In this document: positions 5,226 through 32,052 of the stretch, one piece after another
How positions within the stretch are numbered: the stretch's first letter is position 1
How the letters are laid out: every line of letters starts with the position of its first letter
Assembly (NCBI RefSeq): GCF_964355755.1
Contig: NC_092678.1
Span: forward strand, 3,922,422-3,986,421
DNA length: 64,000 bases
Source: Antedon mediterranea
Taxonomy: Eukaryota; Animalia; Echinodermata
Direction of reading: 5' to 3'
Notes under the pieces: model-generated
What the model was told of the DNA's origin: nothing
Databases searched by the model: none
The model's input: the letters and a program-made list of their open reading frames with translations, nothing else
Position numbers and translations under genes: made by a program

Positions 5226-5391
5226 AGCTTGGTTCCCACTAGAACGTAACGCAAGGACGTAAACGCAACGCAAGCGTTTTAACCAATGACAAGCGAAGTT
5301 ATAGACAGTTAGCAATCACAAGCAAATAAGCCATCGCTTGTGATTGGTCAATTCACTTGCGTTGCGTTACGTCACTAGTGGGAACCACGCT
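5226..5391. mobile_element. PIF/Harbinger-type (Tourist-like) MITE, family 1
   Basis: TIRs AGCTTGGTTCCCACTAG / CTAGTGGGAACCACGCT, 3-bp TSD TAA (5223-5225, 5392-5394). An inverted second copy lies at 56157-56335. Confidence 0.85.
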
Positions 5392-6130
5392 TAAAGGAGG
5401 ATGAAAACGTAGCCCTAAGATATTAATAAGTTGTTTTATAAAAACATACAAAAGAACATTAAACTCTCAGGTTTGTCATTTTGGGTGTAGATATTCAAAG
5501 ATTTCAAAACACCAACAAAAAGTTCAAACTTACTTATGTGTTTATTAACGTTTATTTCAAGAGGGCTGAAGGTAGAAAATGTTTTTTTATGTTATTTTCT
5601 CGTGCACATTCTGAAAATCAACACATAACAAAAAAACATATAACTGCACAATTTATTTAACTTAATATATTTACACCTATATCTCAAAAGAATATTTAGT
5701 GCAAAATACCATTTTTTACTGATCATCAAATATATACAATAGGAGACATATAAATCATTACCAAACTGAAAAAGCACATTCTGTAGACAAATAGTGTTGA
5801 AATTTGCGAATATGAATTCAAAATCTTACAAAACTTTTAGCCACTCATGTGATCTTTTAGGATATAAGTGGTTTGGATGGTTTTGTAAGGCAAGTTAATT
5901 ATGTAGCATGGTAATCGAAAAATAAAATATATATTCATATAAATACAAATAGAAAGAAAAAATAACCAAAACCAAAAAACATAAACAAAATTTTACAAAC
6001 TTTTTTTTTATCTATATTTCTTTATACATTTTTAAATATAAATATGCATATAAAATTTACTTTGAAGCAAAAGGTGAGAATAAATTCTTAATATTTAATA
6101 TTTACAAACAGAAAATATAATTGCATTTTA

Positions 6131-7804
6131 TCAAGAAGTTTCTATGCCAAGTCTTTCATCTTGTTTAACACTATCTTCATGTTTTTGTCGGTGTCTCTGT
6201 TCATGCGTTACGTTTGCAATATCTGCAACATTTTCAATAGTGTTCTCTAACTTTGTATTCACTTCATGTTCATAAGTAACAGACTGCTGTATATTCTCTG
6301 TTGAACCACTTTCTACTGGTGAGCTAGGTTCTGCTGTTGAACCACTTTCTACTGGTGAGCTAGGTTCTGCTGTTGAACCACTTTCTACTGGTGAACTAGT
6401 TTCTACCGCTGTAGGCGGTGAGTTCAAATTAGGTCTATTTTGAGACTCAGTTGATGCTGGTTCAGTCCTCCCACCCGTTTCATTCACAAAAACATCATCA
6501 CCATATTTTTCATTTACTTCTTCTATAATACAATCTTTGGTATCCATATTTTGTTCAGGAAAATCAGAAGACTTTTGAGATTTTGATCCGCGGCGGAAAG
6601 AGAATCTCCTTTTTTTACCAAATATAACAATTTCATACATAGGAGGTGGCGATCTTGGTTCGCCCTCATCAATTGAGTTCGTACGACTGCCTAGTTTGAA
6701 ACTACTAAAACGACGTCCTCTACCAGTACTCACAACGTCTGCGTATTCTGGAGGGAAGTCATTTCGAGCTAGCACTGAGCTTTCATCAAATGAATTACCA
6801 CGTGCCTCTGCAAAAAAAAAACACCAGTTTTTAAACATTCTTTTTCTATTTATTACATTGCGAAATATGCTAATTAGATAATAAGTAAGAATTACCATAT
6901 AATTCATACAGCCTATTCAGAATACTTTTTAATCTATAGAGGGCCCACCATTAATATATGATTGTATCAGAGTAATGCAAAAAGAGGGCGCACTTACAAC
7001 TTTTTCACAGAAAGGTATCTGCTTTATCAGAAATTATCTGATTTGTCAATATATAATACCAAGATAATATGCCCACTAAAGAAGATTTATTCAAAATGCT
7101 GTGTTTGTTATACTTACCAACACTAACTAATCTTGTTAATCGAGATTCACCATTAGTACCTTGTGGTCCACGTATGTGTGCTGCAAAGGCCATGCATGTT
7201 AATAGTAACAGGAATACAATACATATTACTGCTCCAGCAATTGCTCCAATTGTTGAGTACCCATTGTACCCTAATAAAAATTAAATAATAACATTTTAAA
7301 AATATTGTAATTTTGAAGTTGATGACTGTTATAGCACCCACAGTGAATTCTAAATTTTATAGTAATCGCCTTTTTAAACTGCCATGTTGTATATGATTCG
7401 TGCCTCCATTATTATCCTAATTACCTTAGGGCTAAAAGGTATTAGGAAATTAATTTCAATGTTGTAAACAATACTAATTACTATCACATTTCTAAACATA
7501 TTTTTAAAATGATGTTTACAAAACCAATTTCAATATCGTAAACAAATTTCGAAAAGACAAAGAAGTACTATCTGTAATGAATATAAAAGATCTCGGAGCT
7601 ATGAAAAGAAAATTTTTTTGCCAATGTATACAGTATAAAGAACACTAAATTACTGTAAAAATTAGGATTACACACCTATATTCTGGCAATTCTCTCCATA
7701 ATATCCTGGCAAACAAGCGCATGATCCATCAGCATTGCAAACGCCATTGTGTAAACATACTGTAGTACATGCAACCACTGTTGTAGTAATCTCTTGTAAA
7801 AAGT
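6131..7804 (-). CDS. EGF-TM-PPxY single-pass membrane protein, paralog A
   Basis: Exons 7804-7676 (EGF CTTVCLHNGVCNADGSCACLPGYYGENC), 7270-7118 (TM STIGAIAGAVICIVFLLLTCMAFAA...RLVSV) and 6807-6131 (tail with PPEY and PPPMY). All introns are phase 1 GT-AG and join in frame. Start exon uncertain; candidate 10715-10688 (MTPNTTNQP, phase 1). Confidence 0.85.
6296..6402 (-). repeat. 36-bp coding repeat x3 (SSPVESGSTAEP) in paralog A tail
   Basis: Near-identical CTGTTGAACCACTTTCTACTGGTGA(G/A)CTAG units, also visible in the translation. Confidence 0.85.
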
Positions 7805-10687
7805 CTAAAAAATATAACAGAATTATAGAAAAATTTATAAGTCGAAAATTTGTACGGTATATAAGGTATGTTGGATTTTCTTGCAATTTCTGAAAAAAAA
7901 GGTAATTTACATTGGTACGGTATGTCATGCAGAAGATAAATATAATAGTCATCTGTGTGTGTGGATATTCTTTTAATTGAGCAATGTTGGCCTGAAACGT
8001 TGCCCTGAAACGTTGCCATATAATAATAAGAGCCTACCACTACCAGTAAAATATAACCATTACTTATCACATGGTTAGTATTTCATCATTATCAAGTTAT
8101 ATTCTTGATCTGTTTTCGTTATTGATATATTTGTAGTTTTTGATGCAAAGAGATAGAAAACCCCCTGAAACACTATTTGGAACTGAAAATTCCTTCTTTG
8201 GCCGAATTTGTAACGTTTGTTTTCAATCAATTGTATGGTTTTTTTAGATTCTTTACAGAAAGCATTTGTACTGTAGTTGCAATTGACTTGTTTTGACGTT
8301 TTTCTTTGATGAAACATGTCAGCAATTAAAACATGTCTTCTAATAATTAATAACATGATATTTATTCCAAACAAGAAGAATACAATAAATGGAAAAATGA
8401 GAAACCATAAATTTCAAGTGAGTCTAATCAGGAAGTATTTTATCATACAAATGGAAGATATATAATAAAATTTTGAAAAATTGTTCACATCGAAAATAAT
8501 TCATAAATTTCCATTAACTAAAAAAGAAAAATATAATAATAAAGGAGGAAATAAAATACTGTATCTGTTTGCCTTGATTAATATTTTGTTAATCATAAAA
8601 TAAATAATTTAATACAAATTTTTTTTTGGTGTCCCAGCGAAATGTGTACACTACTTTATGAGTTGCATGACATTTTCTAGTACTGGAATGATCTTAAAAA
8701 ATCAAAACAAAACAAAAACTAACCACTCATTATAAAAGATGATCTGATATTTCTGGATTAGACTTCCGTCCACTTTTTGTTTTAAGTGAAAACTTGATAA
8801 ATGTTCAACGTTGATATTTATTTAATAGATAAACTATTAAATTTTGATTGTTGTTCTGCCATCTGTTTTTTGAAAAAGCAAGCTGCAGTTAAAAGAAAAG
8901 AAACACATTTTGTAAGTAATAAACATTTTAAAGAAAATAGACAAGGTGTTTTGTCTCAAAATCAACAGAAAAACATGTATGATGAATCAGAGCGGAAAAA
9001 GATATATCATGGGATGACAAAGATAGATCAGAGAATGAAAAAGATGGATCAGTATAAATCAAACTTGTTTACTACATGATGCACATCAGTGTAAATGTTT
9101 TCAAAAAATTAATCATATGAAAGCTTCCATGGGATATCAGGGTCAGATTAATAATATTATTGAGCATGTGCAGAAGCATGATGCTCTATTTCAGAGTCTA
9201 TTGATATATATATACAGTAAAGTACATTTTCAATAAAAGTAAAAAACAATGTTTGCATGCTTCCAATATCAAGAAGGCCCCGGGCAGCACTTTTAATAGC
9301 AAGTACTTTGATATCGGATTCATTCATTTATGCAGGTTGATGATGACTCGAGTACACCCCTGAGACTAATTGAGGCTATGCATAACATTATTATTGTACT
9401 AATTATAATACAAGTCATTAAGATGCCATTTTAATGACAAAAAAAATATTAAATCATTGTTTCCAGAAAATATAAAATAACGATGATTACTAACTCAAAT
9501 TTTCTAATTTTTATAGAAATATTTCTATACTATAAGTATTATACTGTTACTAAACATTTACTATACAGTATTTTATACATTATCATTAATTAATTTAACA
9601 AAGTACAATACACAATACAAACGTCATGGCTGAACATTTAAATGTTGTAATTTGTTGAAGACAATAGAAAAAAGAAAGGAAGGGGAAATTACTACTCTAA
9701 GTATCTAAGAGATATTAAATACAGTATTTATAGGATATACCACACACAACATAGGATATAAAGACTTAAAAAAAGGAAAGTGAGGATTTGAATCTCATAT
9801 TTATGTACTGTGAAGTTTGTGACATCCTATTTGTAAATATTACATCCTGTGTGAAAAAACAAACGGTAACAGTGAGTACTAAGTAAGTGACTAGTGGTGT
9901 TCTATCACATTGGAGGTAAAAAGTGTTGTCCAGTGCTAGTGGTAGGACATCTACATGAGTGAGTAAGGGGGATGGGTGGGGGATCTTTCGAAATTTAGCA
10001 ATTTTCTTTTTACTATCTTTTTTTCCCCTATTTACATTCAAATTGTTTGGTTTTGCTATTCCCATCTGGCACATACTGTACACTCAAGTGGGTATGATTT
10101 TGCTTAAACCAATCACAATGCAAGTCTACAGTAAATATGCTATAAACTCAACACTCCTTGCAATAAAAGGTTTACGTCTACAGTTTTACATACTGCATGC
10201 ATAATATTATTTGCTGCATGAGGTTTAACAAATATTTGATGTTTTGTTATCAATTTGAATAATGGATATGTTTATATAAACTTATACCTTTAACTGAGGA
10301 AGTAAGTGATTTGTGTTGAACTTGATTCCTAGAACAGACATGTTTACTGCAGCATCAATGTATGCATAAAATATACAACTAGCTATGTTTACACATTCAT
10401 TTCCCCATCAGAGTTAAATTGCAGTCATTTTCAAACATACAGTAGGAGCAGCCTATGGTATTTGGTGTCAAACATATATTTTAATGTAACATATATGATC
10501 ATTTTTTGTTTAATATCATTTACAAAAACATGCTATTATTAATGCTTGTATAGCTATATTCATGTTGTGTGAATAAAATGTTATACTACACACAGGTATA
10601 CTATTATTACAGTAGCATTGATGTTTACCAGTGTTTGGTAACATATTGCATATACTGGATACTACAGTATGTAACAGTAGTAGTCAC

Positions 10688-10715
10688 CAGGTTGGTTAGT
10701 GGTGTTGGGTGTCAT
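10688..10715 (-). CDS. Tentative first coding exon of paralog A (MTPNTTNQP)
   Basis: ATG at 10715, phase-1 donor G|GTGACT compatible with the EGF exon, upstream acceptor TTTTAG at ~10805, N-T-T sequon. Confidence 0.4.
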
Positions 10716-13220
10716 ACTGAACACTATTTTCAAAATACTATATTATTTCTCAACCTTTGGTCTCTTATTTCTACCTCCATGGCTGTCACAGTTTCATTAA
10801 CTTGCTAAAAACAAAAAACATGAACAGCTTTATCTCCATGGGAGAGAACGCATAGATTTATCTGTCAAGTAACTGCTAACTCCATATCAATATTGTTGAT
10901 TGTGTTTGATAGCTACACTACACAAATAATGGAGAATCTTCCTGGTTGGAGAATAACAAATCAAAGTCACACAAAATATTTTATTTCAATTTTTAAAAAA
11001 TTCTTCAGGATCGCACAGGCCATTTAACATGCAAGTTAAATTAAAAAACTCCAAATCTTATCTTTGTAAACAATATGGAGAAAACAATGTATACAACTTT
11101 TGTTTTAATTACTCTATATAATATTTGTAAAATTTAATTAAACAGGAAAATCTGTGCAATATCATATCTACAGTAGACTAGGTAATATAATGGATAAACC
11201 AGTTCCATAACATTTGGATAAAACTCCTTCTATCTATGTAGACGAAGATTCAATAGTAGTTTTGTCTGGTAATTTACATGAAAGAAATAAAATTGAAACT
11301 GATATCAATCCATCGGTGCCTTTCAAAGGTAAATTAACATGGATTGATGGATGTGTACTGCAAACATCATAATCACATACTTATTAAAAACTAATGGCTA
11401 AAAGCTGTTGTAATAATGTTCATGTATATAATACATCAAACTGTAATTATGGATATTGTCTGTGGTTACTTTTGTAAAATGTCCATAAAGATGTCTATAA
11501 ATTCAATTAAAATACAATTAAAAACAAAATTTTAATCTTTAATCAGTACAGTACAAAAAAAATGTCCTCATTATAATAACTTTATTTGAAATTACCAACT
11601 TTAGCAGGAGTTCATAATATAAAACCATAACAAAATACAATAATGTTTTAATATTACGTTGTTCTCAGCTTCATATTTTGCCCAATTTTGATGTAAATGG
11701 AATTAAAAAAAATATAATATTTGAAAGGTTTTTGTTGTGGTTTGTACTTAGTTCCTGTTGAATTTAAAAAGATTGAATCGAAAATTCTGAGAACAGATCC
11801 TTGTAAGAGATTTAGTGCAAAGTTTACAGGAATTAGAATACTTTGTCTTGCCTATATCTCTTTTTCCTGTTCTTTAACAAAAGTATGAACAGTAACAATG
11901 GAGTCTGTAATCAAACTAAAGGAGCAAATGTTCCTGATTTAATAGCAAAGTGTAAACAAAACAAACAATTGATTCATTATATATTTCTTATAAATAGACC
12001 ATGCATAATAATATTTTTACTGTAGTAAACTCTTAAAAAAAACAAAATTAAAGATTTGAACAACAAAACAGTTTAGGAAGCAAAAGTGGCCCTCCAATGC
12101 TGGTGGCCTTTTATATTTTGTTAAAAGCTTTTTTAAAAATATATTTTAATGCCTGTTGTTTTCTTTGGGCCCTTCTCAGAGGTCCTCAGGACGCTCAGGC
12201 CTATGCAAGTTTATCCATGTAAACAAGGTATGGCATAGACATAGAAGTGTTAGAAATGGACGGCCATCATTGGCTACTTACCTTCGATCAAACACACTCT
12301 TTTTTATTTCCTACAAACCTGTAGACTATATAAATATGCAGTAATGAGTCTATGATATTAACATTAAACTCTATACAAATAAACAAACCTCTCACCTACG
12401 TACTAAACGAGAAATGACTACTGTTCACGACGTCACAAATTTTAATCCATTCATAGCTTGTTGATTATAGCCATTTACTATACAAAAAAATCAGGGTCAA
12501 GTGAACAAGGTTGAGGTCAATGACAATAGGCTATCTATCATTCATATGAATATTATAAGGAATTTTTAATAGTATATAATTCTTTGTCACTACCTAACTA
12601 CTGTAACTGGGGTAAGTTTACCTTCTAATTTCATTTGTGCTGACTTGAATCCTAAAAACAATGACTGTGCTATATCCTCAAATGACATATTGCGATTGAT
12701 CAAAGAAAGGTCATCCCAAACAAATCAAATTAATTCATTTATTTTGTAGGCTTTGATCAGAAAACGATCTGTCTATTGATACATAAAATTAAAACGGCAT
12801 CCTATTCAAATTTATTTTAAAGCATAGGATTTACATAGTATCTAATGGATAGACAATTGTATTTACATCTACTTAATTTGTCTATTAACAAAATACACGC
12901 TGTCCTATTATAATTTAATAACACAATATGTTCTTATATTGATCGATATATTCACAACAGTAGCAGCATATAAATCATTTTAGTAATCATTTATCCATTA
13001 GAGAAGCTCTTGATGTGAAAAAAAGAATGGTTGGTGCATTAACTCATTTGACAATATGAAAAGACGTTGAGTTTCTTTCGGAAATAGATCATTTCTTTGA
13101 AGGATTCTACTCAGTTTGGAGGATGAGACTATTAGTACAGTATCCCAAAAAATCCAGTGCGAGTGCTTTTACCCGGCAAAACTTACACTTATTCTTTCTG
13201 AAGTCTTACCTTGACTGCAC

Positions 13221-13310
13221 GGTAAATCTCACAGAGCAAAGAAAGTCCATTAAAACTCACAGAGCCAAAAACATCTGTGTCATGGATTTTCTTGGCTCTG
13301 TGAGTTTACC
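13221..13310. repeat. Foldback/inverted repeat (MITE relic or hairpin)
   Basis: A ~29-bp unit GGTAAA(T)CTCACAGAGC(C/A)AAGAAA(A/G)TCCAT occurs twice forward and once reverse. Perfect 16-bp stem 13253-13268 / 13292-13307. Confidence 0.7.
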
Positions 13311-14639
13311 ACACTCAAGATGTGCTGACAGTGGTAAGATATCCCCTTCCTGAGGAGTTGGTAAAATACTGTTACAAATTAGTCCAATTCGATTTTCGCA
13401 TAAGACATAACGCAATCACAACCAACAACAACTTGGTGATGATCCGCTACTAGTGATTGATTAATTAATTGTGTGAAGGTCTTGTATTGGGATGTGCTCA
13501 TCCTTTTAATTTACATTATGTTTTTTGTTACAGTATAGTATCTAGTATAAAGAAGAAAAATGGAAACTGTATCCTAGTAGAAACCAAGCCCAATCATCCA
13601 CCCCTTCACGGTAAAATGGTAGAATATTTTTACCCGTCAGTACTCTACTGTATCTTCTTTTTTCAAGGCCAATGAACATATTTTACTATTAAATATTTCA
13701 ACTGTTCATCTTTAAATCAAGTACTGACTGAATACTTGATTCCTCCCTGATGTAATTATGAATGAGCAGATTGAATTATTTGTCCATTAGTTTGTTTGCT
13801 ACAGTATACCAAACTTAATGATCGATGACTATCTCATGTGACCAATTAGGTTTATAAGAAGTCTACAGGCTTACAGTAATTTCGATAAAATCTATTAAAG
13901 CACGCAAAAATAGACTAGAGTACACTTACTCTCGTTATAATATTATTCTGTTAATAGTAGTAGGAGGCACACAAATATTTTAAAATAATTAATATTTTAT
14001 TGTAAGAAAGCAGAAAAAACCTGAATCTGTCTCGGTGATAATATTAGAATGAAAAATATGTAAAGATTAGTATGCCTGCGAGACTGAAAATTCACCTAAT
14101 TTTATAATACGACACATGTTCACGTAGCTTATGAAACCTCAAATGCGATCTGATTTGCATGTCATAACTAATTATTCAAAAATTACAATTGACAAACAAA
14201 ACCTAATTAGGTAATACTGCACTATGCACATATTTGTAGATTTTAACTCTAATGCATCGTTCATACATGAAAGTATATGTAAAATAGGCTAATTGTAAGC
14301 TTATTAACTTTATAAAAAAAAATAGTTGAGATTGAAAACTTTCTCGGACTACTCACAAAACTCATCCTGAACAAACATATGGTCAATAAAATAATGAACA
14401 TATCTATAATACTGTACCAGCAAGTTCTAAATGATGGCCTTGTTTTTCAATGTTAGAGTTAAACAGTATATATTATACGGGAGTGTCTTAATGCCAAATA
14501 ACCTCTGAAACCCAATATCATTATAATCAAAGAATATCGTTTTTAAATTAATTAATCAATTACTGTAATTAAATAAAATTTCAGTATATCACCAGGCGGT
14601 TTAGAATTTCTTCTAATGCTAATAAATATTTATATATAT

Positions 14640-14700
14640 ATACAGTATATACAGCAGTATATACAGTAGTATATACAGTAGTATATACAGTAGTATATAC
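14640..14700. repeat. 12-bp minisatellite (TATATACAGTAG)n
   Basis: About 5 tandem units visible. Confidence 0.8.
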
Positions 14701-17173
14701 TGAATCAGAAGAATGAACAAAACAATTGTTCCTGTAACTATCGTGGTTGATACTGAATGATCCCAATGGTAATAAGCTTTTTGGGATATCCTGGAAAATC
14801 ATAAATTATAAACGCATTTATTTGTAATGTCAGTAATTTATGTTATCACTTTGTATGCACTTTGTTTTCCTGCAGTAATAAATTCAAATCAAATCAACTT
14901 GTAACAATGTGGATTCACTTTGGTATGATACTCTAGCTGTTAGTATTGAAGCCTGGCTTTTTTGCACTCCTTCTCTTTCTAAATGCAGCAGATAAATGCA
15001 CTTGAACACCTTCTTAGTCCCACAAAACAAAGTGTGAACTACTGCACAGTGCGTTAGCATTATGTTGAGTTTCCAATGATGAAAATTCTTTGGTGATTCT
15101 TACACATCCATTCAAGTCCCATAGATGTCAAAGATATCTCCGTATAGTCATAGTATTTTTACCATCTGCTTTCATGAGGCTTTTTTTTAGATTCACTATA
15201 AACAAATTACTTATCTTATGCTAATTTTATTTTAAAAAATAGATTTTGCAATTTAACTACCGGTACTATATTATGTAAATGACTGTCATTTATCTTTTAT
15301 TTTGGATACATTTTTAAAAGGTATTAAATACTCATGAATATTAAACTTACTAATTTTGTATTTAAAGTCGGATAGGATAAAAAATGGGATTATATGTTTA
15401 ATTGAGCATTTGATTTAAAACAACCACAATCTCATAAGAGAAGATGATTTGTTACCTGGTAACACAAATTGGAACATTTTATATTATATTAAACTGTACA
15501 TATTTTATTATGTCCATATTGGGTACAAAAGTATAACATTTACTATTATCTGTATTATATGCATTTAGCTGTAATGCAAAGGATTTTATAAACATACTGT
15601 AAGAATATTTATATGAGAAAAAGATTCATTGCATGTGACAGGATTTGAACTCAGGAAACTGTTTTGTAGACAAGACCAAAATCATCACCTGTATGCCATC
15701 AATTGCAATACTTTGAAACAAATCTTGCTCATGGCATTGTTAAATCTTTTAAATACTTAAGCCTAAACCGTCATATTATGTAGGCCTATATGTCAAAGTC
15801 TAATTAATATTTAATGACATTAATCAATGCTAACAACAAAAGATCCTGTAGTATTTTAGAATTGGTGTTTTATTCAAGTATAATGACACTTAAAGCATCA
15901 GAAATAAAACGTCTTTGTCCTTTAAAAATAATTATGCAGATTAAAATATTCGATGGAAAGACAGAATTGTGGGGAATAAAATTTAAGGAGATGTAATCAA
16001 ACAAAAAGCATCAGAAATAATAACAAAAATTATTGATAAAACTATTCCATTTGTTGTATACAGTATTCACATATTGACATTCAAGAATTCCCCATCCCCC
16101 ATTATTGTTAGCATTCTGTCCAATGATTGGTCAGTTGGGTGGAACAGCTACAACACAATTATATTAATACATTACAACGAGGGTCAGGAACCTACTTACC
16201 TTGTTGTTTCGGTGTATAAAATGAAATACAGTAGTCAGATTCGGCAACAAAAAATAAAACGATTTAGCCTATTGCTAGTTTTTAACAACCAACATCTTTT
16301 AAACAGAAAGCGACATATCAAAAACGTGTGAAATACTACACCCGACTATTTGTTACTTACCACTGATGGGTACGTGTTTTTAGTAACGAATCTTAAATCA
16401 ACCAGAACAGGTCGTCGCTGCCAAATAACAAGAAAGATTTGGACCATCATTTTTTTTAAAAACACAGTTGTAGTTCAGAAACGTGTAAAATGACCCATAA
16501 AATATCTTACCTGCAAGTTCTTTTTATCATAAACCCTTTATCTTACTCAATCATTTAGAAAATTAGCAAACAAAAATAACAACAGACCTCACCTCGCTAT
16601 CTCCAAAATCCGTTATGAGATTACCTGATGAGTTATCGTTACGCTTCATTGATTCACTGCCGTCAATATTAGCATATAAAACACATCCGGTATTATATCA
16701 TAATGACGTCATGATGACTATTTAAATATTGGTTGATGATATCCGATTTAGACAGTGATAAAGCAAAAATATTTATTTATTTGTTTATATATTTTATCAG
16801 ATGCAATGTTTACTGAAAGTTTAATATTTATTTCAAAATATATTACACGCACTTTAATTATTGCAAATTAGTATAGGCCCAATATACTTAGTACAAATTA
16901 GTATAGGCAAAATACTGCACGGTATTGTCTAAAAAAAGTGGCCCTTAAGCCTAAAAAAACATGAAAAGCAAATATTAAGGTTGGAAAATTGGCCTGTGTA
17001 TTACAATATTTCTGAAAATGGTATGCAAAGCAAGATACTTATTTACCAACACTTATTGACTACTATATGATCATGCTTATTGCTATAAAAGTTGGCAACT
17101 TTAGCAAAAATGGTGAAATTAATGTTATGAATGTTTTCAACAAGTAACTTAATTTTAAACAATGAGGTGAAGA

Positions 17174-18410
17174 TCATACATGTTCTTCAGTCATTGAACT
17201 TATACTCAGTTCTGGAGGTTGGGTGCCATTGTCTTGACTTTTTCGCTTAAAACTTTGTGTGAACCATCTCAAATGTTTACTTAGCCGATTTCTCATAACA
17301 ATAGCGTACGAAGGAGGGGGAACGTCTGGTGTCGTAGGCCTACTGTTTTCCATTGATGCGATTGTCTGATTGACAATGATATCATGGTTGCTGCCCTCTG
17401 ATGGCATATCAGTTGCAGTTTGATAATCTGGAGGGGTTTCAATTGCAGCTATAGCGGTTGATCGGTTGTAAATTGATTCTTGTCGTCTGGTGGTTTCTAA
17501 AAATAAATTGATAGGCGTCATGTTTTATGTAAATGTGCTAAGATGACGACAATTTATATCTGAGGCACCACTATTTAGTATTAATGTTTTAAATAAAATA
17601 AGAAACCAACAATTCAAAACATTATGCCTAATATATTCGTTTAAACGATTTTCTGCAAGACTTTTATACAATATTTATATTATCGATGCACTTACCGACA
17701 GATTTTACCTTGATACAATATCCATTTTCTCTATATTTCTTAATTAGCTTGAAAACTAAGAAAACGATTATGAAGAATAAGACAACCATGATACTGAAAC
17801 TGACGCCCTCAAACAAAACTAAAAAAGAAACAATGATAATAACACTTGGCATCTGCAGCACCATTGATGCCTTCGACATCAGAATCATTATCAACTTATC
17901 AAGAGGCAACTGACTCTTTGAATTATAGTTATTGTTTTGCTTTAGTTGCCCCTGACCATTGTGCTTTGTTTCTGTTCTGTTCTGTATCTGCATTGGTCGA
18001 ATAAATACATGAAATGAAACTTGGTACACCATCATATAAACAACAATCTATCCTCATTAGCTGGTTATTCATAATAATCATTTCGGGCCTATGGCATCAC
18101 ACCCACGTCATCATTATCATCACTGGATAATAGCATCATCCTCGTTTGTAGTTTCATCTTTCGACAACATACTTACATACATGGCATATAATTGATTTTA
18201 AATAAAATACAACATGTAAACTGAAGAAAACGACCAATTAAACAAGAAAAGAAAACTCTTACGGCTACCATTATCCATTGTTGGAGCCTCTGTACTTGGC
18301 ATTGTGTGTGGTTTGTGCATGACAATTATTCTGCTGTCGAGTGAAATTATAAAACTTGAATCTGAGGAGGAAACAGTGATAAGCACGTTTGTAAAAGCTG
18401 ATGAAGCCAT
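17174..18410 (-). CDS. TM-PPxY membrane protein, paralog B (EGF exon decayed)
   Basis: Exons ~18410/18361-18263 (Ser/Thr stalk ...MPSTEAPTMDNGS, donor GTAAGA), 17818-17696 (TM FSIMVVLFFIIVFLVF...KVKSV) and 17496-17174 (tail with PPDY and PPPSYAIVMRNRLS). Introns are phase 1 and in frame. Start codon uncertain. Confidence 0.7.
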
Positions 18411-18473
18411 CACCAATTAATATTTCGGGACTACACTTTATCAACCACTAATACTAAACTTTCTCTCTCTTAC

Positions 18474-18594
18474 TGTAGATCTGGTACTGGTACTGGTACT
18501 GGTACTGGTTCAAATAACCGTCTCACAGAGACATCTGGTAGCCATTGACTTGAAGTTGGCATTTGGATGTGTTACTTTTAAATGTAGGCCTACA
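18474..18594 (-). pseudogene. Decayed EGF exon of paralog B
   Basis: Reads CRPTFKSNTSKCQLQVNGYQ, then CLC in the +1 frame, then DGY back in frame. It contains an in-frame TGA, a (CCAGTA)n microsatellite replaces the last Cys, and it ends in a phase-1 donor A|GTAAGA like the EGF exons of the other paralogs. Confidence 0.5.
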
Positions 18595-19724
18595 GTATGA
18601 GAGTGACTACTACCAAATTACACAGTCACAAAACAACTTATAAAACAGTTCATATATACAGTTAAAACATTGCTGGGAATCATAAATTTCTGTTGAAGCA
18701 GGCTCTAATGAAGTTGCATCTAGTAAGTTGACTTTGTTGTACAACTCTATCAAGTACTGATGGTATCTTCCGACCTCTTCGTTTACTTTGTGTTGTGTGA
18801 AAAGTAAGAATTTTTGTAGGATCTTCATTTTCTTTTCTAATTACATGTCCGATCCAGTTGAATTGTTGCTTGTAGACATATTCTTCTAGCGGTTGACAGC
18901 CAGTAATACCTTTTTTAATAGTATAATTAGTATATTTGGTTATTTTTAGTAGAAAACTTACCTATTTCTCACCAACTGTCATAAACTAGATGATACACAT
19001 TTTAGCATTAACACTGATTTCTCCCAGTATCCTATATGTCACGTTTTTATCTAGCGTACTTATTTATATATTTTGAAGAACGTAGGCATATGCCTATATA
19101 AGTACCGGTACCACTCTCTGTGTACCACCGTGATTACACTTGTAATAACAAAATCCAATATAAAACTGCATTCTTCACGCGCTCATAAACTCTATGAATT
19201 GAGTTATTGGTATAGCCTTTTCCAAAAAAAATTGTTTGAGGAAAGAACAGTTTGTAGTTACACGGCAGAACAATCACATTAGCATATTCCATCACTGAAC
19301 AATCATACGTGTTTCTTTTTCTGTTATTGTATTCTATTATTGTGGTATAAAACTCAGAAAACACGCCGATCAAACGGAATGAGGATAATGAAGTCACTGA
19401 CATGTAACTATGACGCGTAGGCCTATATTATATACAAAGTATTATGCTATATACCACATAATTACTCATGAATCGTTTTACTTAATTTAGAATACTCTTT
19501 TATTATAATTTGATCGAGCATAATTTAAACGGCACCAACTAACTTCTTTGTACCCAATGACAGCACAAACTTGAAATGCATTTATTATTCAGAAATACAG
19601 CAATATATAAAAAAAAACAAATTACGTAAGAATTAGAAAATAATTGGTCAGATGTTTTGCCCTACTCTGACGTAATTTGTACTTTATACTAAGTACATAC
19701 GTGCGAAAAAATACGCAAGTAATT

Positions 19725-19768
19725 CTCGGGTGGGACTCGAACCCACGACCTCCAGATCACTAGCCTGG
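19725..19768 (-). mobile_element. tRNA-derived (SINE-like) fragment, 3' half only
   Basis: Minus strand GGAGGTCGTGGGTTCGAGTCCCACCCGAG has a Pol III B-box/T-arm; no D-arm or acceptor 5' strand. Confidence 0.55.
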
Positions 19769-20125
19769 AAATATATACATTCTTGTCATACAAATTAGAA
19801 ATGTCAATAAATAAGTTTATTGGACTTGTGCAGGATCACAAAATGATCTTTATATACATTATAAATTAAATTGAGAATTATATACAAAATACATAACATT
19901 TGCGATTAGAGGAAGAAATCAATTTTAATAATAGTTTAGTAGCACCATTTGGCTAACATCACAATCAAAGAGTTTTTCTTCTATAGGATTATAATCATTT
20001 AATGTATCATCATTTAATGGTTTAAATAATCAATATTTACACTCCGTTGTCATTTAAACAATTGCTATGCCATTTAATGTGGTATCCTATAAGAAACTCT
20101 TGAATGTTGCTTGCCTTCTCCAACG

Positions 20126-21414
20126 TTAGTTTTCACACTCCATTGTCACTTGTACAACTTTTCCAGGAATGCTGATGGCTCTATTAGGCCCTCGGACCTT
20201 TTTATTTTTAGGTTGCTGCTGAGTTGTTGACCAAGGGGTTTCGTTTTTGGTCATCATTGATTGTGACGGTACACTACTGCACCTGCGTAAATCCTGCCTG
20301 GACGAGCCTTCTGCAGCTTCCGTAACTCTAGGACGCCTACTGACTAACACTCTCTCTAGAATTTTGGAAGCAAACGACAGCGTTGTTTTTAAATTCGTAT
20401 TTTTTTTAGTTTTACTATTTTTCCCTGAGTTTCTTGAGCGGTTTGCGTTTTCATCACCAGCATCGTCTGTATTCTGGGAGGAGTTTGTGCTACTTTCTTC
20501 TGGTTCGTAGCCAACCGCTTCTTGATAGTCTGGTGGGCTCTCAACACTCGCTAAAGCATATGTTCTATCTCTTCTCGATAAAGTAGGACCTTTATGGAAA
20601 AACAACATAAGATAAAATATAAACATTATTTATTACTTGTTAGGCCTACATTGTAAATGAAAAAAAATAATCACCAGAATGGTAGTAGTAATATAGTATA
20701 GTAATATTTAAAAAAAATGTATTTTCAGTAACCGTTGATGGTTACGATGCCAATAAAATTAAGACAATAAGGAAAATTGAGACTATTTAGCCCAAGAAGT
20801 CTCATCACTGCGTATACTGAAAGTGTTCTCTTCTTGCATGTTAAATTGAGACACCCATAGCAATAGTCATCAGTGTAGGTACACAGCAAAATAAGACAAT
20901 GTTTTATTTTGTATTGTGGCGTCATTAACGAAAGTACTTCCCCTTTTTTCAAGAACTAATAGAAAACTTACGCCTTCGAACACTGTGTACACGAATAGTA
21001 GTAGCAGTTGGTGTATGTGAATCTTGTAACTTTTGGTAGAGTATAAATAAAAATATACAAAGAAGGCAGACAAACAAAGCGGCACAAAAGCTACCAACCA
21101 CAATGTATTGAGTCCCTGAAAAACAAACAGAAAATTAAGATTAAATTATGATTTTAAGACCTCAGTAGAAATCATGCAGTCCTAAAAACCACGAATCAGC
21201 TAACGTTGTTAGATGTATAGATAAGAACGATAAAAATAATGATTTAAAAAAAATAGTGTTAAGCGAAATGCAGATGATAACTGATAATGGTATTAAACTT
21301 ACCTAAATCTAGTTGACATATTTCGCCTTTGAAGCCAAATGGACATTTGCAAGTCTTGTCAATATGCATATAGGTGCCTCCATTATGGCACACTTGTTGG
21401 GGAGTTGGTATCAT
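20126..21414 (-). CDS. EGF-TM-PPxY membrane protein, paralog C (4-Cys EGF, one PY motif)
   Basis: Exons 21414-21303 (MIPTPQQVCHNGGTYMHIDKTCKCPFGFKGEICQLDL), 21115-20972 (TM YIVVGSFCAALFVCLLCIFLFILY...RVHSVRR, a different frame from the ORF track) and 20589-20126 (PPDY tail). All phase 1 and in frame. Confidence 0.85.
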
Positions 21415-23153
21415 TGTAGCACTTTTAAATCTGTAAAGGTTCAAAATCGTTTTAGCAGCAGGCGAAATTGTTGATAACGACTGAAAAAACTAGGCCTACA
21501 GGAATTTTAACAATCACAAATGCTGATGATAAACGTCACATGCCATACGAAACTCCTTTAGGATATATCTATTTTGGGCTAACTCCGGGAAGTTGAACAA
21601 CACATAATACAGGCATTTAGGTTTACAGGAACTTACAAATGTTACACAAATCGTGACAAAGGAGTAAGGTGGACGATCAATCCTGGTTCATGTGGGTTGT
21701 CTGCACTTTCCTAAACCACACAAAATGTAACAGAGGCCTACAGCATAAGGTATACCAGTGACATAATACTTATGTTAGTCATTTCGAAAACAATGATTTG
21801 TCATTACCTTTGTAGAGTTTGAAGGACAAACTTTAAACTAACATAAACTAAACTGGTATAAAACATAAAAAGAAAAGATAAAAACCTACATTTTCAAAAT
21901 AAACTATGAAGTGCGTCTGTTCTAAAAATAAAATCTATTCCAGACAGATTGAAATGGTAGGTAGACTCTCCCATCATTCCAAAGAAATTGGTAAAATATG
22001 TAGTATAGGAGCCCTAACATGCTATAGCCCTATTGCGTTAGTCGTATCTTAAAATAATATTGTCATCTTATGCTACATTTTTTTCGATCGATAAATAGGC
22101 CTATGCTATACCAACGAAAAAATATTGACTGAAAAAACAATCAAAGAAAGAAAACAAAAAACATACGGAGCAACAACCTACAAAGTTATCAGGGAAAATG
22201 GTAATATATATTAGTCCTAGGCCTTACCTTACCTGTTTGTTTGTTTAAACTTTTCTTCGGGAGCTAGGCTCTGACGACTACTTTCATCGAACACGAGTAC
22301 ACCGTTTCAATCGAAAAAAAAAATTCCTTAAAATAAATACCACTGAAAATTGTCAATAGAAGAATGGCAGGTATTGTTCAGAGTACAGATTTGAATACAC
22401 GTGAGCGACGTCACGGATCCTTGTTTAATTTTAACCAAAATCGTTCTGTTTTTTACGAGTGAATTAAAAGAAATATAAATAGAGAGGACGTCCTTTGTCT
22501 GAATCACCGAGCCAAACAAAATATATAGTGTGTATATAAGTATTGTATTATACCAATAAAGCCACAGTTTGTATTTAATAAGGTTTCTGGAAACAATAAA
22601 GGAACTTTACCCAACTGGTATTGGCCTCTAATGTTGTACTCTTTACATTAATCAATAGTCTATAGAAACCGGTTAGTTTTAACAGATGAATTGAGATTGA
22701 CGACCAGAGTAGCACAAATAGTTTATATAATTTAATCACTTTTTAAATGCTTTGTTAACCAAGGACGGGGGAAATTATCCATGTTCCTGAAGGGAGTTGA
22801 AAACGTTCGTTTTGGTAATTCCGAATAGGAGATGAGAATCCAAATATTGACATCGCGAAGGTTAATATGATTTTAGGCCTATACTATTTATAACTTTGTT
22901 TCGGCGTCAACAATATAAAACACCGGTGCATCGAAACAAGTACCAGTTACCTGTGTATGCGCTTAATAAATGAAATAATGATTTAATTTTAAAGAAAAAA
23001 TAAACCTCTTCATATCTTATAAGTGAGTTGATTGCACATTTCGCATGATTTCATTTCTAAAAGCTAAATTGATTATAAAATCTTGTACAAAATGGAAATT
23101 ATCTATTTACAATAATCTATTTTCAAGGTTATTACTTAGCAAGTCTCTCTATT

Positions 23154-24221
23154 TCATTCAGAGTCACGTGTGTTAAAAGATGCATCGCCTGTTTCATCAG
23201 CAGCAGACGGTTGCTTGTGGCTAGCTCTGTTTTTGTGCACTAGCGAGTAGGATGGGGGTATCGCTTGAGGTATGCTATGGTCTTCTTCTGAATTAAATTG
23301 TTCCTCTGATTCCTGAACCTTGGAGACATTTGAACGTTCTTCCAGATTCTCATTAATTGACTCTTCGGTTAACATTGGATTAACATGAGTTGATGGCTCG
23401 CTGTTTTTTGTAGCTTCCGGGACTTCCACAGATGTGGTATCATCGAATTGATCGTCGGTGTTTGTTCTTGTTACGTCATCGTAGTTTGGTGGGACGTCAT
23501 CGTTTGCTTTATCAATCTTAATGCTAGTATTGACGGAATCTTTGAAATAAATAGAAACTTCATAAGAAAAAGGACATTTCTAGCTGACATAGGACATTTT
23601 AACGTAAAAAAACAAAGTTTACTTACGAACACTAATTATTCTTTGAATGATTCTATTCTGTCTAGGTTGCGTTTGTTGCCGTTCTCCTTTAAAGTATCTG
23701 TATGAATATATAATAATTGTCAACAGAAGGCCCGTCGCAAGCAGTACGGCAATGGTGATGTATGTTGTTCTGTCAGCAGCTGCAATAAAGGCATACTACT
23801 ATTATAATATCTTACCTGGCACAAGTATAATATATGTTATCCAATTGTGTTAAGATTCATTTGGAGCACTCTCGTTTTATAGTTGTTGGTTTCAGCTTAA
23901 CTTTAAAAGTTGACAACAACTTATATCCATAATCCATAATAAGAAGAGTAGGCCTAGTCACAATAAAAAAAAGTATCCGGATCTATACACCGGATTAGAT
24001 CGGTATGCAAGTTCGTTTGCATTGAAGAAAGATTTAGGCAAAAAATACTTTTAATTGAAAAAAAAACACCAAAATAACAGATAAAAACGCAACATATGCA
24101 TACTATTAATTTCACATGAATCTCCGGTGTATGGATTTGGACACGCACACACCGGACCGTCACGTGACTGTAAACACGACCCTCCGTTCACACACTCCGG
24201 ATTGCATGGTGGTCGGCTCAT
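23154..24221 (-). CDS. EGF-TM-PPxY membrane protein, paralog D
   Basis: Exons 24221-24104 (MSRPPCNPECVNGGSCLQSRDGPVCACPNPYTGDSCEIN), 23779-23627 (TM YITIAVLLATGLLLTIIIYSY...RIISV) and 23539-23154 (PPNYDDV, PPSYSLVHKNRAS). All phase 1 and in frame. Confidence 0.9.
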
Positions 24222-25819
24222 TTCCTTAACCCACAGCCTTGCTTGCTGAAAGGCAATGTATAAACGGAGTTAAACAAGAAACTTTGGAGGAAGTATTTCA
24301 CCTTTAACCTTTTCGTTCGTCTGGGTGCACTTTTGTGATCTCAATATTTGAGAAACCCATTCCATATCCTGTTGAAATAACGGAACAAGGAGAAAAACAA
24401 AATTAGGCCTATATTCTCCAGCACGAAATTAAAATATGCCTGTCCTTAAGTACGCTTTGTAAAGAAGAAAATGGAAATTCCTAATAAATAATACATATGA
24501 AGATTATTAAACAGGAAAGTGCATTATAGCTTTCCTTACTTCAATAGAAACTGCTATATACAAGGAAATTGAATATTAAATTAATTGAATAGAAAATTTA
24601 CCAAAACAATTACATAATCATAACAAAATCACTGAAAACAATGTAGGTATATAACATACATATATAACATAAACTAAATTCCACAGAGGAATTAAACGAT
24701 TATATTCCAATTCTTCAATAGATAATAGAAACCTTATTTTATACAAACAAAAGTGGTGAGTGAACTATAATAATACGGTACGTTTCTATACAATAACTAT
24801 TGTTACGTACAAGGTTGCGATCGTTCCAAACCGTGAAATAAAGGTGTAATTATACAGCTCTATATAATATTTGATTATTTCCTCCTAATGCCAATACTAG
24901 ACAACACTTACCTTTGACGATTTTGTATGGTTTCACTTTAATATAGGCCTAATGCCGGTAGCTCCACTCCAACACTTCCTGCTCGCACAATGTGTAAGCA
25001 AAATATTAATAGCGAGACGTGACTGTAACCGATTTAACTGTACTTGAAATTGAACAATACCACGATATTTGACTTTGACTTTAAAAAACCATATGCACTT
25101 CTAAGGTTGGTATAAAAAGCATTTTAAGCAGCATAGAATAATGATCGTATAATAACGTGTAAACTGGTATGAGACCTATGTTAAATTGGAGACACGTCAA
25201 ACTGGAGAAACATACTCGTACTAGCCTGCGTACTCTCTGACTTCAATTACAATAAAAGCTCTGAAATATTTCTATTCACTTCAATGATCCGTTATTGTTG
25301 ATTTCCCGTAATCTCCACAAGATTATAAACTCACGTCATTTGTATATATTTACACTTATTATCAACTCATTGACTATAAAATATTCTTTTAATATTATCT
25401 TTAGAACGTTGTTAACGCCCAAATAAAACACGACAGTTTTTCATTATTAAATGAATTTGAATATACTTCTCATTATTTTAAACAATGTTACTTACCGTAT
25501 GCGTATTAGGATCTAATATTTTTGTTTCCCCATAGAATCATCTATGATTGATTGTCACTAACATGATATTCATTAAATAATAAGGTGGTACAATAACTCA
25601 TTAAACATACAATTCTTAGTCTTCTTTGCTGGAGCACGATGACCTACCGTGGGTATTAAAAATCTGATTACTTTTCAATTTGACTTTGGTGAGATATTAA
25701 CATAAAAAGAACTAATCACAGTTGAATATCGTTTTATAAACAGCATTTCTCAAATAATTTGTAAATTAGAAGTGATACTGTTTCAATAATGTGATTCACA
25801 GTTCAATAACGACTTGTTT

Positions 25820-27244
25820 TTATATGTCACTTTCAGTATCATTAGCATTTGCTTCTTCGCTTTCTGCATGTTCTTGTAATATACGTTTGCTTGCTCTATT
25901 TTCGTGAACCTCTGTATAGTCCGGAGGAGGCTCACTTTTATCTAGTTCATCAGATCTTCGATTTTGTTTATCAGCATCAGTTCTGTTCTCACTTGTAGCT
26001 GCTCCTGAAACTTCATTGTTGCCACTTTCAGTGGTTTTCACTGCTTCTTCTCTAACGTGAGAAACCGACAATTCTTCTATCTGACCAGTCCTGCTAACTT
26101 CAATCTCAGACTCGCCATCGTTAAAGTGATTTGCAGCCGTATCGTCTGCTGTGCGTTCTGACGAAATTGCGTCTTCTATCTCATTCACGTCTGTTTCAAC
26201 CTGACCCTCTGCAACCGATACGTCATCATAAGCAGGCGGTAAATCATTTTTAGATCGATCAATCTTTGTCGTTCTTCTTTTTGCTCCTAAAAGGACAAAA
26301 AAACAATGTTTATTAATATAGTTATGTGACAGTGCTCTACATTACCTCCATTAGTGATAACCACGTATTGCAGCAACAATATGAACACACATCATTTACG
26401 ATGTGGATACCTTCCAATTGAGATTGTTTCATCGATAACCAGTAGGCCTACCAGCAGATTATTAATATTATTCACGAGTCGGCACAAAGTATACCAGTGA
26501 CTGATAATTATTAATTGAAGGTTTCAAACACTGCAGTAAATAAATTAATTTCAGTGGAACAGATTAATTGTAGGATGGTTCTCACCATTTCAATAGAGAT
26601 AAAGTAGGCCTAGGGTAAGATCTAAGAGATACCTACTGACACTAATAATCCGGTTGATTATTAGAGGCCTATCTTGTTCTTCTCGGTAGCGTTGACAATA
26701 TGCAACAAGTAAACAGGCTGCAATTGCTAGTAACGTTGCAATTGCAATTAATACAAACGTTACCGTCATTGCAACTGAAAGTTAAAAAACAAACAATTGT
26801 TATAAAACATTTAGATACATAGAATATATACACACCTCCTAAAAACTGGCATGTTGTTAGTATTTTAAGATTTCAAGCTTAGGCCGAATTATAATTCAAT
26901 TTTCTGATATTGATAATTATTAGATAATACAAAGGTCTGTTGATTTAAAGGGAACCTTTTAAACAAGGCAAGCCTGGCTGTTTTTTAAACAAATATCCTA
27001 GATTTATAAACTATATTCTCGTACGGTACGGTATCATGTCTGGGGACAATAAAGAGTCCCGCTGTTTCTTGAGAAATGACACAGTACGCGAATCAGCTGA
27101 AATATATCATTTATTGTAAAATCTATATATACCATCTCTTTCACATCTGTCTCCATAGAACATACTAGTGCAAACACAAATATTTTCTGTAACTTGACAT
27201 GTTCCACCATTCAGACAAGTCGGCCGGCAAAGTCTTCCACTCAT
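25820..27244 (-). CDS. EGF-TM-PPxY membrane protein, paralog E
   Basis: Exons 27244-27133 (MSGRLCRPTCLNGGTCQVTENICVCTSMFYGDRCERD), 26774-26637 (TM VTFVLIAIATLLAIAACLLVAYC...RIISV) and 26286-25820 (LPPAYDDV, PPPDYTEVHENRAS). All phase 1 and in frame. Confidence 0.9.
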
Positions 27245-31893: not shown

Positions 31894-32052
31894 AGCCGAT
31901 TTTCCACTAGGCGAATTTGTTCGCGCGAATCGAACGCGCCAGCTTGTACGCATGTGTATTCATGTTTACGTCTTCCAAATCCTTCTCTACGCATGCGTAT
32001 TAGCTGACGCCTTCGATTCGCACGAACAAATTCGCCTAGTGGAAAATCGGCT
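31894..32052. mobile_element. PIF/Harbinger-type MITE, family 2
   Basis: ~40-bp TIRs AGCCGATTTTCCACTAGGCGAATTTGTTCG..., TSD TTA (31891-31893, 32053-32055). Confidence 0.9.

What the first reader, a model, noticed from the sequence alone, without database searches (positions are those of the whole stretch)
6131..27244. Hidden tandem array of five EGF-TM-dual-PPxY proteins: candidate lineage-specific Nedd4 adaptor/receptor family
Seen: five co-oriented genes with the same exon plan, namely a tiny ectodomain with one EGF, a phase-1 intron, a TM exon, a phase-1 intron, and a long Ser/Thr/Glu-rich tail. The sequences are otherwise hardly alignable, yet every tail keeps PPxY: A PPEY+PPMY, B PPDY+PPSY, C PPDY, D PPNY+PPSY, E PPAY+PPDY. 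Established: PPxY motifs bind WW domains of Nedd4/Itch/Smurf HECT ligases and YAP, and single-pass PY proteins (Commissureless, PRRG, PMEPA1) act as adaptors that route surface receptors to lysosomes. I do not recognise a described family with a lone N-terminal EGF in this layout. Inference: a rapidly diversifying set of adaptors in which the variable EGF selects cargo or ligand and the PY tail recruits the ligase.
Basis: partly seen in the sequence, partly recalled or inferred. Interest (0 to 1): 0.85.

Follow-up and report, generated by a model that had tools for sequence, protein, structure and literature searches.

The report
Feather-star array of headless PPxY adaptors
Five neighbouring, spliced feather-star genes encode small membrane proteins with tail motifs that likely recruit Nedd4-type ubiquitin ligases; they are likely shortened copies, without a signal peptide, of a larger uncharacterised receptor-like gene of other echinoderms, and likely mark partner membrane proteins for removal.

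Summary
The five minus-strand genes are real. One RNA-like run shows 15 of 16 modelled introns, and models A, C and E equal RefSeq 'uncharacterized' proteins of Antedon mediterranea. All nine PPxY motifs are present, far above chance.

The family is not array-specific. Orthologues of A, C, D and E occur in Anneissia japonica. Sea stars, urchins and sea cucumbers have a long form: signal peptide, CUB, likely second CUB, LDLa, 0-3 EGF, TM, RxxSV, two PPxY. Its TM is 94% identical between classes, against about 30% for the CUB regions.

Best reading (0.5): headless WW/Nedd4-recruiting membrane adaptors, working like Comm, PRRG or PMEPA1, which likely choose clients through the TM rather than the EGF. 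They fail membership tests for Comm/PRRG, Shisa-like, EGFR ligands and NETO. No binding or function was shown. Verdict: new variant of a known kind, moderate interest.

The parts
6131..6807 (-). Gene A tail exon (to stop): PPEY 6743-6754, PPMY 6635-6646, basic RRxS sites, an 11-residue repeat in about three copies
   Evidence: (joint 6807/7118); model identical to P0065
7118..7270 (-). Gene A TM exon with GxxxG; ends in RLVSV (7119-7133)
7676..7804 (-). Gene A EGF exon, six Cys, spacing 3-5-5-1-8
   Evidence: Pfam EGF 23.1 bits, above cut-off
8724..8882 (-). Gene A second leader exon; start codon at 8730 with an in-frame stop 9 codons upstream
   Evidence: joint 8882/16511; RefSeq P0065 has the same start
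16511..16660 (-). Gene A first leader exon; donor at 16510, upper end assumed
   Evidence: joint 8882/16511
17174..17496 (-). Gene B tail exon: PPDY 17423-17434, PPSY 17306-17317
17696..17818 (-). Gene B TM exon; ends in KVKSV (17697-17711)
   Evidence: joints 17496/17696 and 17818/18263
18263..18361 (-). Gene B N-terminal exon without EGF; ATG at 18320, short Ser/Thr/Pro-rich ectodomain with one N-x-S sequon
   Evidence: joints 17818/18263 and 18361/18962
18962..19260 (-). Gene B non-coding leader exon, upper end assumed; holds a six-codon EGF-start look-alike at 19138 that is not statistically a relic
20126..20589 (-). Gene C tail exon: single PPDY 20525-20536
   Evidence: model identical to P0057
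20972..21115 (-). Gene C TM exon with RVHSV (20979-20993)
21303..21430 (-). Gene C EGF exon; ATG at 21414; four Cys (first and third missing; the Anneissia orthologue has six)
   Evidence: (Pfam below cut-off)
22233..22380 (-). Gene C leader exon; donor at 22232, upper end assumed
   Evidence: joint 21430/22233
23154..23539 (-). Gene D tail exon: PPNY 23481-23492, PPSY 23247-23258
23627..23779 (-). Gene D TM exon; ends in RIISV (23628-23642)
24104..24245 (-). Gene D EGF exon; ATG at 24221; spacing 3-5-8-1-8
   Evidence: Pfam EGF 28.2 bits
24912..25060 (-). Gene D leader exon; donor at 24911, upper end assumed
   Evidence: joint 24245/24912
25820..26286 (-). Gene E tail exon: PPAY 26228-26239, PPDY 25916-25927
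   Evidence: model identical to P0001 = XP_071960758.1
26637..26774 (-). Gene E TM exon; ends in RIISV (26638-26652)
27133..27246 (-). Gene E EGF exon; ATG at 27244; spacing 3-5-6-1-8
   Evidence: Pfam EGF_2 27.8 bits
27854..28000 (-). Gene E leader exon; donor at 27853, upper end assumed
   Evidence: joint 27246/27854

Best explanation
The five genes are spliced tandem paralogues encoding single-pass proteins without a signal peptide, likely inserted N-out/C-in, whose PPxY tails likely bind WW domains of a Nedd4-family ubiquitin ligase and so likely send themselves and a partner membrane protein, likely chosen through the TM helix, to the endo-lysosome. Shown: gene structures, motifs, orthologues, and homology of the TM-to-PPxY core with a longer CUB/LDLa/EGF protein of other echinoderms. 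Inferred: (1) the array arose from the 3' part of that gene (last EGF, TM, tail) under new non-coding leaders and duplicated before Antedon and Anneissia split, A being the conservative copy; (2) type III insertion with the TM as reverse signal anchor; (3) WW binding and ubiquitination of tail lysines (6-12 per tail); (4) client choice by the TM, each paralogue's diverged TM fitting another client; (5) the invariant Ser of RxxSV is likely a basophilic kinase site or short docking motif that gates the adaptor.
For: Nine PPxY against at most 3 in 40,001 shuffles; all nine have Val (7) or Ala (2) at Tyr+3, like the extended PY motifs of Comm and PRRG4 (PMC5578492). R, S, V, P, P, Y are invariant in 9 of 9 aligned short forms. 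Both PPxY are kept in the long forms of all classes while the surrounding tail is 20% identical. AlphaFold model of A: confident EGF and helix 48-79, PY region mostly below pLDDT 55. The start codon lies 4-14 residues before the first EGF cysteine, with in-frame stops upstream in 5 of 5 leaders, and four Anneissia orthologues start alike. Net charge is higher on the C-side of the TM in 13 of 13 proteins. TM identity between sea star, urchin and sea cucumber classes is 0.94, against 0.33, 0.28 and 0.46 for CUB1, CUB2 and LDLa. The EGF is missing in B and in P0002, P0049, P0078, P0070, P0073. A crinoid-only profile scores 8 of 8 long or brittle-star forms at 20-43 bits, with 0 of 300 architecture-keeping shuffles as high. 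Precedent: PMEPA1 is type Ib with two PPxY, binds Nedd4 and promotes lysosomal degradation of the TGF-beta receptor (PMC5316989); Comm needs Robo's TM (PMC5578492).
Against: No ligase, client or localisation was tested. A PY motif does not guarantee Nedd4 recognition, and 11.7% of human proteins hold a PPxY (PMC8509885). PRRG4's motifs also bind MAGI scaffolds, and Comm's Robo sorting does not need Nedd4 (PMC5578492). The EGF is kept with six Cys in 7 of 9 crinoid proteins (39-64% identical between orthologues), so it is under constraint. TM conservation could serve self-association rather than clients; GxxxG is present only in A, its orthologue and the C orthologue among crinoid copies. The charge bias is only 1 unit in A, C and E. 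No signal-peptide predictor was available, leader starts were assumed, and 12 + 20 joints were not shown, so a minor signal-peptide exon is not excluded. In the reverse profile test B and the D orthologue are weak (12.1 and 11.3 bits; 1 and 2 of 300 shuffles as high).
Confidence: 0.5

Rival explanations
1. They are small receptors, co-receptors or decoys in which the EGF binds a ligand or cargo; the PPxY motifs mainly control their own turnover (closest to the first reader's reading).
For: EGF kept in 4 of 5 genes and in four Anneissia orthologues. The long relative has a receptor-like ectodomain matching NETO2 (E 1.4e-6) and resembling LRP3/10/12 (Atlas 0.90). PMEPA1's own lysosomal sorting depends on its PY motifs (PMC5316989).
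Against: B has no EGF, C lost a cysteine pair, and EGF-less products are annotated in relatives. The TM is far more conserved than any ectodomain part of the long form.
Confidence: 0.27
2. The WW partner is not a ligase: the tails tether YAP, MAGI or similar scaffolds to a membrane.
For: PRRG4's PY motifs bind MAGI proteins (PMC5578492). The long forms end in T-x-V, a class I PDZ-type ending (motif class recalled), which suits scaffolding.
Against: That C-terminal ending is not kept in orthologous crinoid pairs. Paired PPxY with hydrophobic Tyr+3 near a TM matches the Nedd4 adaptors described.
Confidence: 0.12
3. They are growth-factor precursors like neuregulin-4, shed to release an EGFR ligand.
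For: A lone EGF close to the TM; Atlas look-alikes include pro-neuregulin-4 clusters at 0.79-0.81, leads only.
Against: Cys spacing is 3-5-(5 to 8)-1-8, not CX7CX4-5CX10CXCX8C (PMC8657471). There is no intron between Cys4 and Cys5, a near-invariant feature of such ligands (PMC11686035). B has no EGF.
Confidence: 0.05
4. The copies are decaying fragments of a broken receptor gene, with no function.
For: Long branches for B (6.19) and C (0.91); loss of EGF in B; no CUB or LDLa exon in the window.
Against: Open spliced frames in all five; orthologues of four; A is 93% identical to its orthologue from stalk to SV and 88% from SV to PY1.
Confidence: 0.03

Closest known systems
Commissureless and PRRG1-4
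   Same: Short single-pass proteins with two PY motifs and hydrophobic Tyr+3; Comm, PRRG1 and PRRG3 lack signal sequences (PMC5578492).
   Different: EGF, or nothing, instead of a Gla/propeptide ectodomain; both motifs PPxY, no LPxY in the tails; Pfam Comm 14.9 bits against a cut-off of 27 for E; RxxSV motif.
PMEPA1/TMEPAI (and LDLRAD4, recalled)
   Same: Type Ib topology, TM near the N-terminus, two PPxY that bind Nedd4 (PMC5316989).
   Different: No Pfam or sequence hit to it; EGF ectodomain; no evidence for Smad binding.
Shisa-like / STMC6 adaptors (Shisa, CYYR1, WBP1, VOPP1, TMEM92)
   Same: Small Cys-rich ectodomain, one TM, PY tail (PMC5578492).
   Different: Their six-Cys pattern has adjacent CC pairs and follows a signal sequence; here a true EGF fold and no signal peptide.
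NETO1/2, SOL-2, Drosophila Neto (for the long echinoderm relative)
   Same: CUB-CUB-LDLa ectodomain, one TM, PDZ-type C-terminus (PMC9083331); NETO2 is the best PDB hit of P0059, residues 25-324, E 1.4e-6.
   Different: Extra EGFs and a PPxY tail; the TM-tail profile does not hit NETO2 at E up to 10. The five crinoid proteins have no CUB or LDLa.
LRP3/10/12 family (for the long relative)
   Same: Atlas feature hit at 0.90, CUB plus LDLa.
   Different: A lead only, no alignment; domain order and tail motifs were not compared here.

Membership tests
Comm/PRRG | Single TM with cytoplasmic PY motifs | tested here: met
Comm/PRRG | Extended LPxY motif (GLPSYDEAL type) in the tail | tested here: not met
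   No LPxY in any of the five tails; definition from PMC5578492
Comm/PRRG | Gla/propeptide ectodomain or Pfam Comm above cut-off | tested here: not met
   EGF instead; Comm 14.9 bits against 27, seen for E only among 4 crinoid full-length proteins scanned
Comm/PRRG | Down-regulates Robo, binds Nedd4 | not testable with these tools
   needs cell assays
Shisa-like (STMC6) | Six-Cys pattern with CC pairs after a signal sequence | tested here: not met
   Spacing 3-5-(5 to 8)-1-8, no CC pair, no signal peptide; definition from PMC5578492
PMEPA1/LDLRAD4 | TM at the N-terminus without signal peptide, two PPxY | tested here: met
   4 of 5 have two PPxY, C has one; topology inferred
PMEPA1/LDLRAD4 | Sequence homology to the family | tested here: not met
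   No such hit by Pfam.
EGFR ligands / neuregulins | Cys spacing CX7CX4-5CX10CXCX8C | tested here: not met
   against PMC8657471
EGFR ligands / neuregulins | Intron between Cys4 and Cys5 | tested here: not met
   Whole EGF in one exon in 4 of 4; definition from PMC11686035
NETO/SOL-2 | Two CUB plus one LDLa in the ectodomain | tested here: not met
   Absent from the five crinoid proteins and from the window; present in the long relatives, where the second CUB is inferred from the NETO2 match
NETO/SOL-2 | Homologous TM and tail | tested here: not met
   NETO2 is not among the 12 PDB hits of the TM-to-PY profile at E up to 10
LRP3/10/12 | Alternating CUB and LDLa clusters and sorting motifs in the tail (recalled) | not tested
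   Only the Atlas lead; no member sequence was in hand

The most novel reading that the evidence does not exclude
Feather stars turned an undescribed NETO/LRP12-like echinoderm receptor into a panel of five headless, TM-addressed E3-ligase adaptors. Each picks a different membrane client through its helix and is switched by the conserved RxxSV serine. The array may be read as one spliced read-through unit, each gene's leader being the tail end of the gene before it.
Probability: 0.15. Interest if true: 0.7.

Novelty: new variant of a known kind. Interest (0 to 1): 0.42.

Why it matters
Single-pass PY adaptors decide which receptors reach or stay at the cell surface. This adds an uncharacterised family in which one cytoplasmic module sits under a full CUB/LDLa/EGF ectodomain, a lone EGF, or almost nothing. 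That is a natural deletion series for asking whether the ectodomain or the TM picks the client. The near-invariant TM of the long form makes the sea urchin or sea star gene an easy knock-down target. The mechanism itself is of a known kind and the range seen is limited to echinoderms.

Tried and rejected
1) EGF relic in B's leader: a six-codon look-alike at 19138 sits where an EGF exon would be. An EGF profile gave no hit there, and DNA alignments scored within the control range (51-134 of 292 controls as high). Not supported. That profile held five EGFs and scored A's own EGF at only 0.9 bits, so it is a weak test.
2) TM homodimer of A, residues 12-100: no answer, score 0.01, alignment not used; no evidence either way.
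3) A crinoid long form or a relative outside echinoderms: none among 24 hits of 7997 scored candidates or 16 hits of 7994. One search also missed P0068, a member of its own query, so absence is weak. No CUB or LDLa exon lies in the window. No whole genome was held.
4) Hemichordate EGF-TM proteins P0030 and P0022: they lack RxxSV and score -4.7 to 5.5 bits; not counted as family.
5) A candidate coding exon of D near 24300-24370 is skipped by the joint 24245/24912. An earlier, longer start for B's TM exon was replaced by the joint at 17818.
6) No RNA holder on record was listed; X1 is treated as RNA only because of its GT-AG joints.
7) Read-through between genes: contigs cross E-to-D and B-to-A, and one runs from D's tail to 22259 next to C's leader donor, but X1 has depth in all bins and contigs cannot show one transcript; a lead only.
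8) Foldseek on the model of A: no match at E up to 0.001, top rows all EGF-containing.
9) Tree: the automatic cut dropped the EGF from both A rows, Acanthaster and Patiria; 8 of 14 inner branches are open and the root is not known.
10) Earlier findings of the scan: nothing.
11) Literature searches found no description of this family in their listings; most subscription papers are not searched, and no supplement was read.


Full report
What the window is. It is an AT-rich eukaryotic stretch (28-36% GC). The tail exon of gene E matches at 100% a 238-aa RefSeq 'uncharacterized protein' of Antedon mediterranea, a feather star (XP_071960758.1). No whole genome was held.

Checking the observation. 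Shuffling the five tails 40,001 times gave at most 3 motifs in total and never one in each. Run X1, not on record as RNA, shows joints for 15 of the 16 introns of my models. All are at depth 0 in X2-X4 and X3; X2 covers much of 20-28 kb poorly, X3 and X4 cover it. Fourteen have GT-AG ends. The 87-nt intron of D has the right length but was placed 2 nt off. A's 7805-8723 intron was not among the rows shown, but RefSeq P0065 needs it. The models give proteins of 321 (A), 167 (B), 239 (C), 218 (D) and 238 aa (E); A, C and E are identical to RefSeq proteins. B and D were not returned by any search.

Corrections. B has no EGF: its TM exon is joined to a 99-nt Ser/Thr/Pro-rich exon, and that to a leader closed by stops. 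A possible EGF relic in that leader failed its test. C keeps four of six cysteines, while its Anneissia orthologue has six; the missing first and third form one disulfide in EGF domains (recalled). A, D and E pass Pfam EGF or EGF_2 cut-offs, C does not.

No signal peptide. The start codon lies 4-14 residues before the first cysteine of the EGF (about 25 before the TM in B), and an in-frame stop lies upstream in each leader. Leader starts were assumed, no predictor was at hand, and hidden joints could hold a minor exon. Net charge is higher on the C-side of the TM in 13 of 13 family proteins, by only one unit in A, C, E and the Diadema protein. N-out/C-in (type III) insertion is therefore inferred.

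An overlooked motif. All five carry [RK]-[ILV]-x-S-V at or near the end of the TM exon, 21-26 residues before the first PPxY. The chance per tail is 1-4%, and 0 of 20,000 shuffles had it in all five; the pattern was drawn from these sequences, so the figure flatters it. Independent support is its presence in the relatives: R, S, V and P, P, Y are invariant in 9 of 9 aligned short forms. A, D and E fit a hydrophobic-x-R-x-x-S-hydrophobic kinase consensus (recalled). All nine PPxY have Val or Ala at Tyr+3.

Relatives in feather stars. A word-free search of 1.84 billion representatives with E gave 47 hits; I looked up 10 by name. They include orthologues of E, D and C in Anneissia japonica, and one search added A's. 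All four are recorded on a contig of the same length, 1,646,020 bases, which suggests the array is conserved. The tree pairs A, D and E with their orthologues (100/99, 91/91, 88/67) and joins D with E (99/100); B and C group only weakly with the C orthologue (caveats under tried and rejected).

Relatives in other echinoderms. One search also hit a 584-aa sea star protein over query residues 9-170 (E 3.1e-5). A profile search found such long forms in sea stars, urchins and sea cucumbers, and a short form in a brittle star (24 hits of 7997 scored; names). Their layout is a hydrophobic N-terminus, CUB, likely second CUB, LDLa, 0-3 EGF, TM, RxxS[VI], two PPxY and a T-x-V end. Because that profile held one long form, I retested without it: a crinoid-only profile scores 8 of 8 at 20-43 bits, and 0 of 300 shuffles that keep TM composition and PPxY reach the real score. 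The reverse test is clear for 7 of 9 and weak for B and the D orthologue. The last EGF of the long forms has the same short spacing as the crinoid EGFs. So the five genes likely equal the C-terminal part of that gene. No CUB or LDLa exon lies in the window. Whether feather stars keep a long form elsewhere, and whether the family reaches beyond echinoderms, is open: searches found none but are lossy.

Where the constraint lies. Between echinoderm classes (12 pairs from 6 of the 9 aligned proteins) the 22-residue TM is 94% identical, against 33% and 28% for the CUB regions, 46% for LDLa and 20% for the tail after PY1; the EGFs were not scored in that call. In orthologous crinoid pairs the EGF region is 64, 39, 50 and 56% identical (A, C, D, E) and the stalk-to-SV region 93, 42, 56 and 71%. 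EGF-less products occur in B and in five database proteins, which are predictions. This points to the TM, not the EGF, as the main partner surface; the EGF's retention in 8 of 9 crinoid proteins argues it still does something. The AlphaFold model of A shows a confident EGF and helix 48-79 and a mostly low-confidence PY region (mean pLDDT 56.4); its top Foldseek rows are EGF-containing chains, none at E up to 0.001.

Mechanism. Most likely (0.5) these are WW-recruiting membrane adaptors that work like Comm, PRRG4 and PMEPA1. PMEPA1 is type Ib with two PPxY, is ubiquitinated by Nedd4 and routed to the lysosome, and promotes receptor degradation (PMC5316989, passages). Comm lacks a signal sequence and needs Robo's TM (PMC5578492, passages and section 6). 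Every step after the anatomy is inferred. Rivals: ligand-binding receptors or decoys whose PY motifs govern their own turnover (0.27); tethers for non-ligase WW proteins such as MAGI (0.12); shed EGFR ligands (0.05), ruled against by spacing (PMC8657471, one passage) and by the missing Cys4-Cys5 intron (PMC11686035, passages); decay (0.03). A PY motif alone does not guarantee Nedd4 binding (PMC8509885, passages).

Membership. They are not Comm/PRRG, Shisa-like, PMEPA1, EGFR-ligand or NETO members by the features tested. The long relative has a NETO-type ectodomain (PMC9083331, passages; NETO2 hit) but an unrelated TM and tail; an LRP3/10/12 likeness is an untested lead. Searches for this architecture gave 0 papers or listings that do not describe it (titles and abstract starts only). 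Subscription papers are largely not covered, and genome-paper supplements were not read.

A lead on transcription. Each gene's leader donor lies only 0.66-1.17 kb beyond the previous stop. The E-to-D and D-to-C intervals have no AATAAA (about 1.3 expected in each), while C-to-B has three and B-to-A two. RefSeq labels C 'isoform X1' and E 'isoform X2' under neighbouring accessions, which may mean one locus. Contigs cannot settle this.

Verdict. A real, conserved and uncharacterised family; new variant of a known kind; interest 0.42.

Noticed in passing
window 28769-40911: Five single-ORF rhodopsin-type GPCR genes directly upstream of the array (28769-29785 +, 30545-31516 -, 32786-33673 +, 35004-35876 +, 39889-40911 +). 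Three were scanned and pass Pfam 7tm_1. No link to the array was tested.
   Followed up: partly
window 16511-17174, 18962-20126, 22233-23154, 24912-25820: Each leader exon abuts the previous gene's 3' end; E-to-D and D-to-C lack AATAAA, and RefSeq labels C and E as isoforms X1 and X2. Possible read-through or shared locus.
   Followed up: partly
P0089 and P0091 (Lytechinus variegatus), P0066 (Amphiura filiformis): The long gene is annotated in two pieces in one urchin and as a short EGF-TM form in a brittle star: either annotation splits or short internal-start forms outside feather stars.
   Followed up: no
window 6290-6400: About three tandem copies of a 33-nt, 11-residue Ser/Pro/Glu unit in A's tail, absent from the Anneissia orthologue.
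   Followed up: partly
window 20126-20400: C has lost its second PPxY but shares two other tail motifs with its orthologue; an N-R-[AL]-S-like motif follows PY2 in B, D and E and recurs near C's end.
   Followed up: no
window 5220-5400, about 14250-15270, 18570-18910, 19640-19770: High-copy repeats by contig depth. The 18683-18961 ORF looks like the end of a non-LTR retrotransposon protein (recalled likeness; no significant Pfam hit).
   Followed up: no
window 44683-45394: Minus-strand ankyrin-repeat exons (Pfam Ank).
   Followed up: no
window 58908-59468: Plus-strand ORF with a long five-residue Asp-Pro-x-Arg-Met repeat followed by a basic stretch that resembles the start of an HMG box (recalled likeness; no Pfam hit).
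   Followed up: no
window 12898-14601 and 15653-16540: Unspliced X1 contigs at depth 23-37 inside A's 7.6-kb leader intron, above neighbouring intron depth; unexplained.
   Followed up: no
P0030 (Ptychodera flava): A hemichordate protein with signal-like N-terminus, two EGF, TM and three PPxY but no RxxSV: a second EGF-TM-PY design not shown to be homologous.
   Followed up: partly
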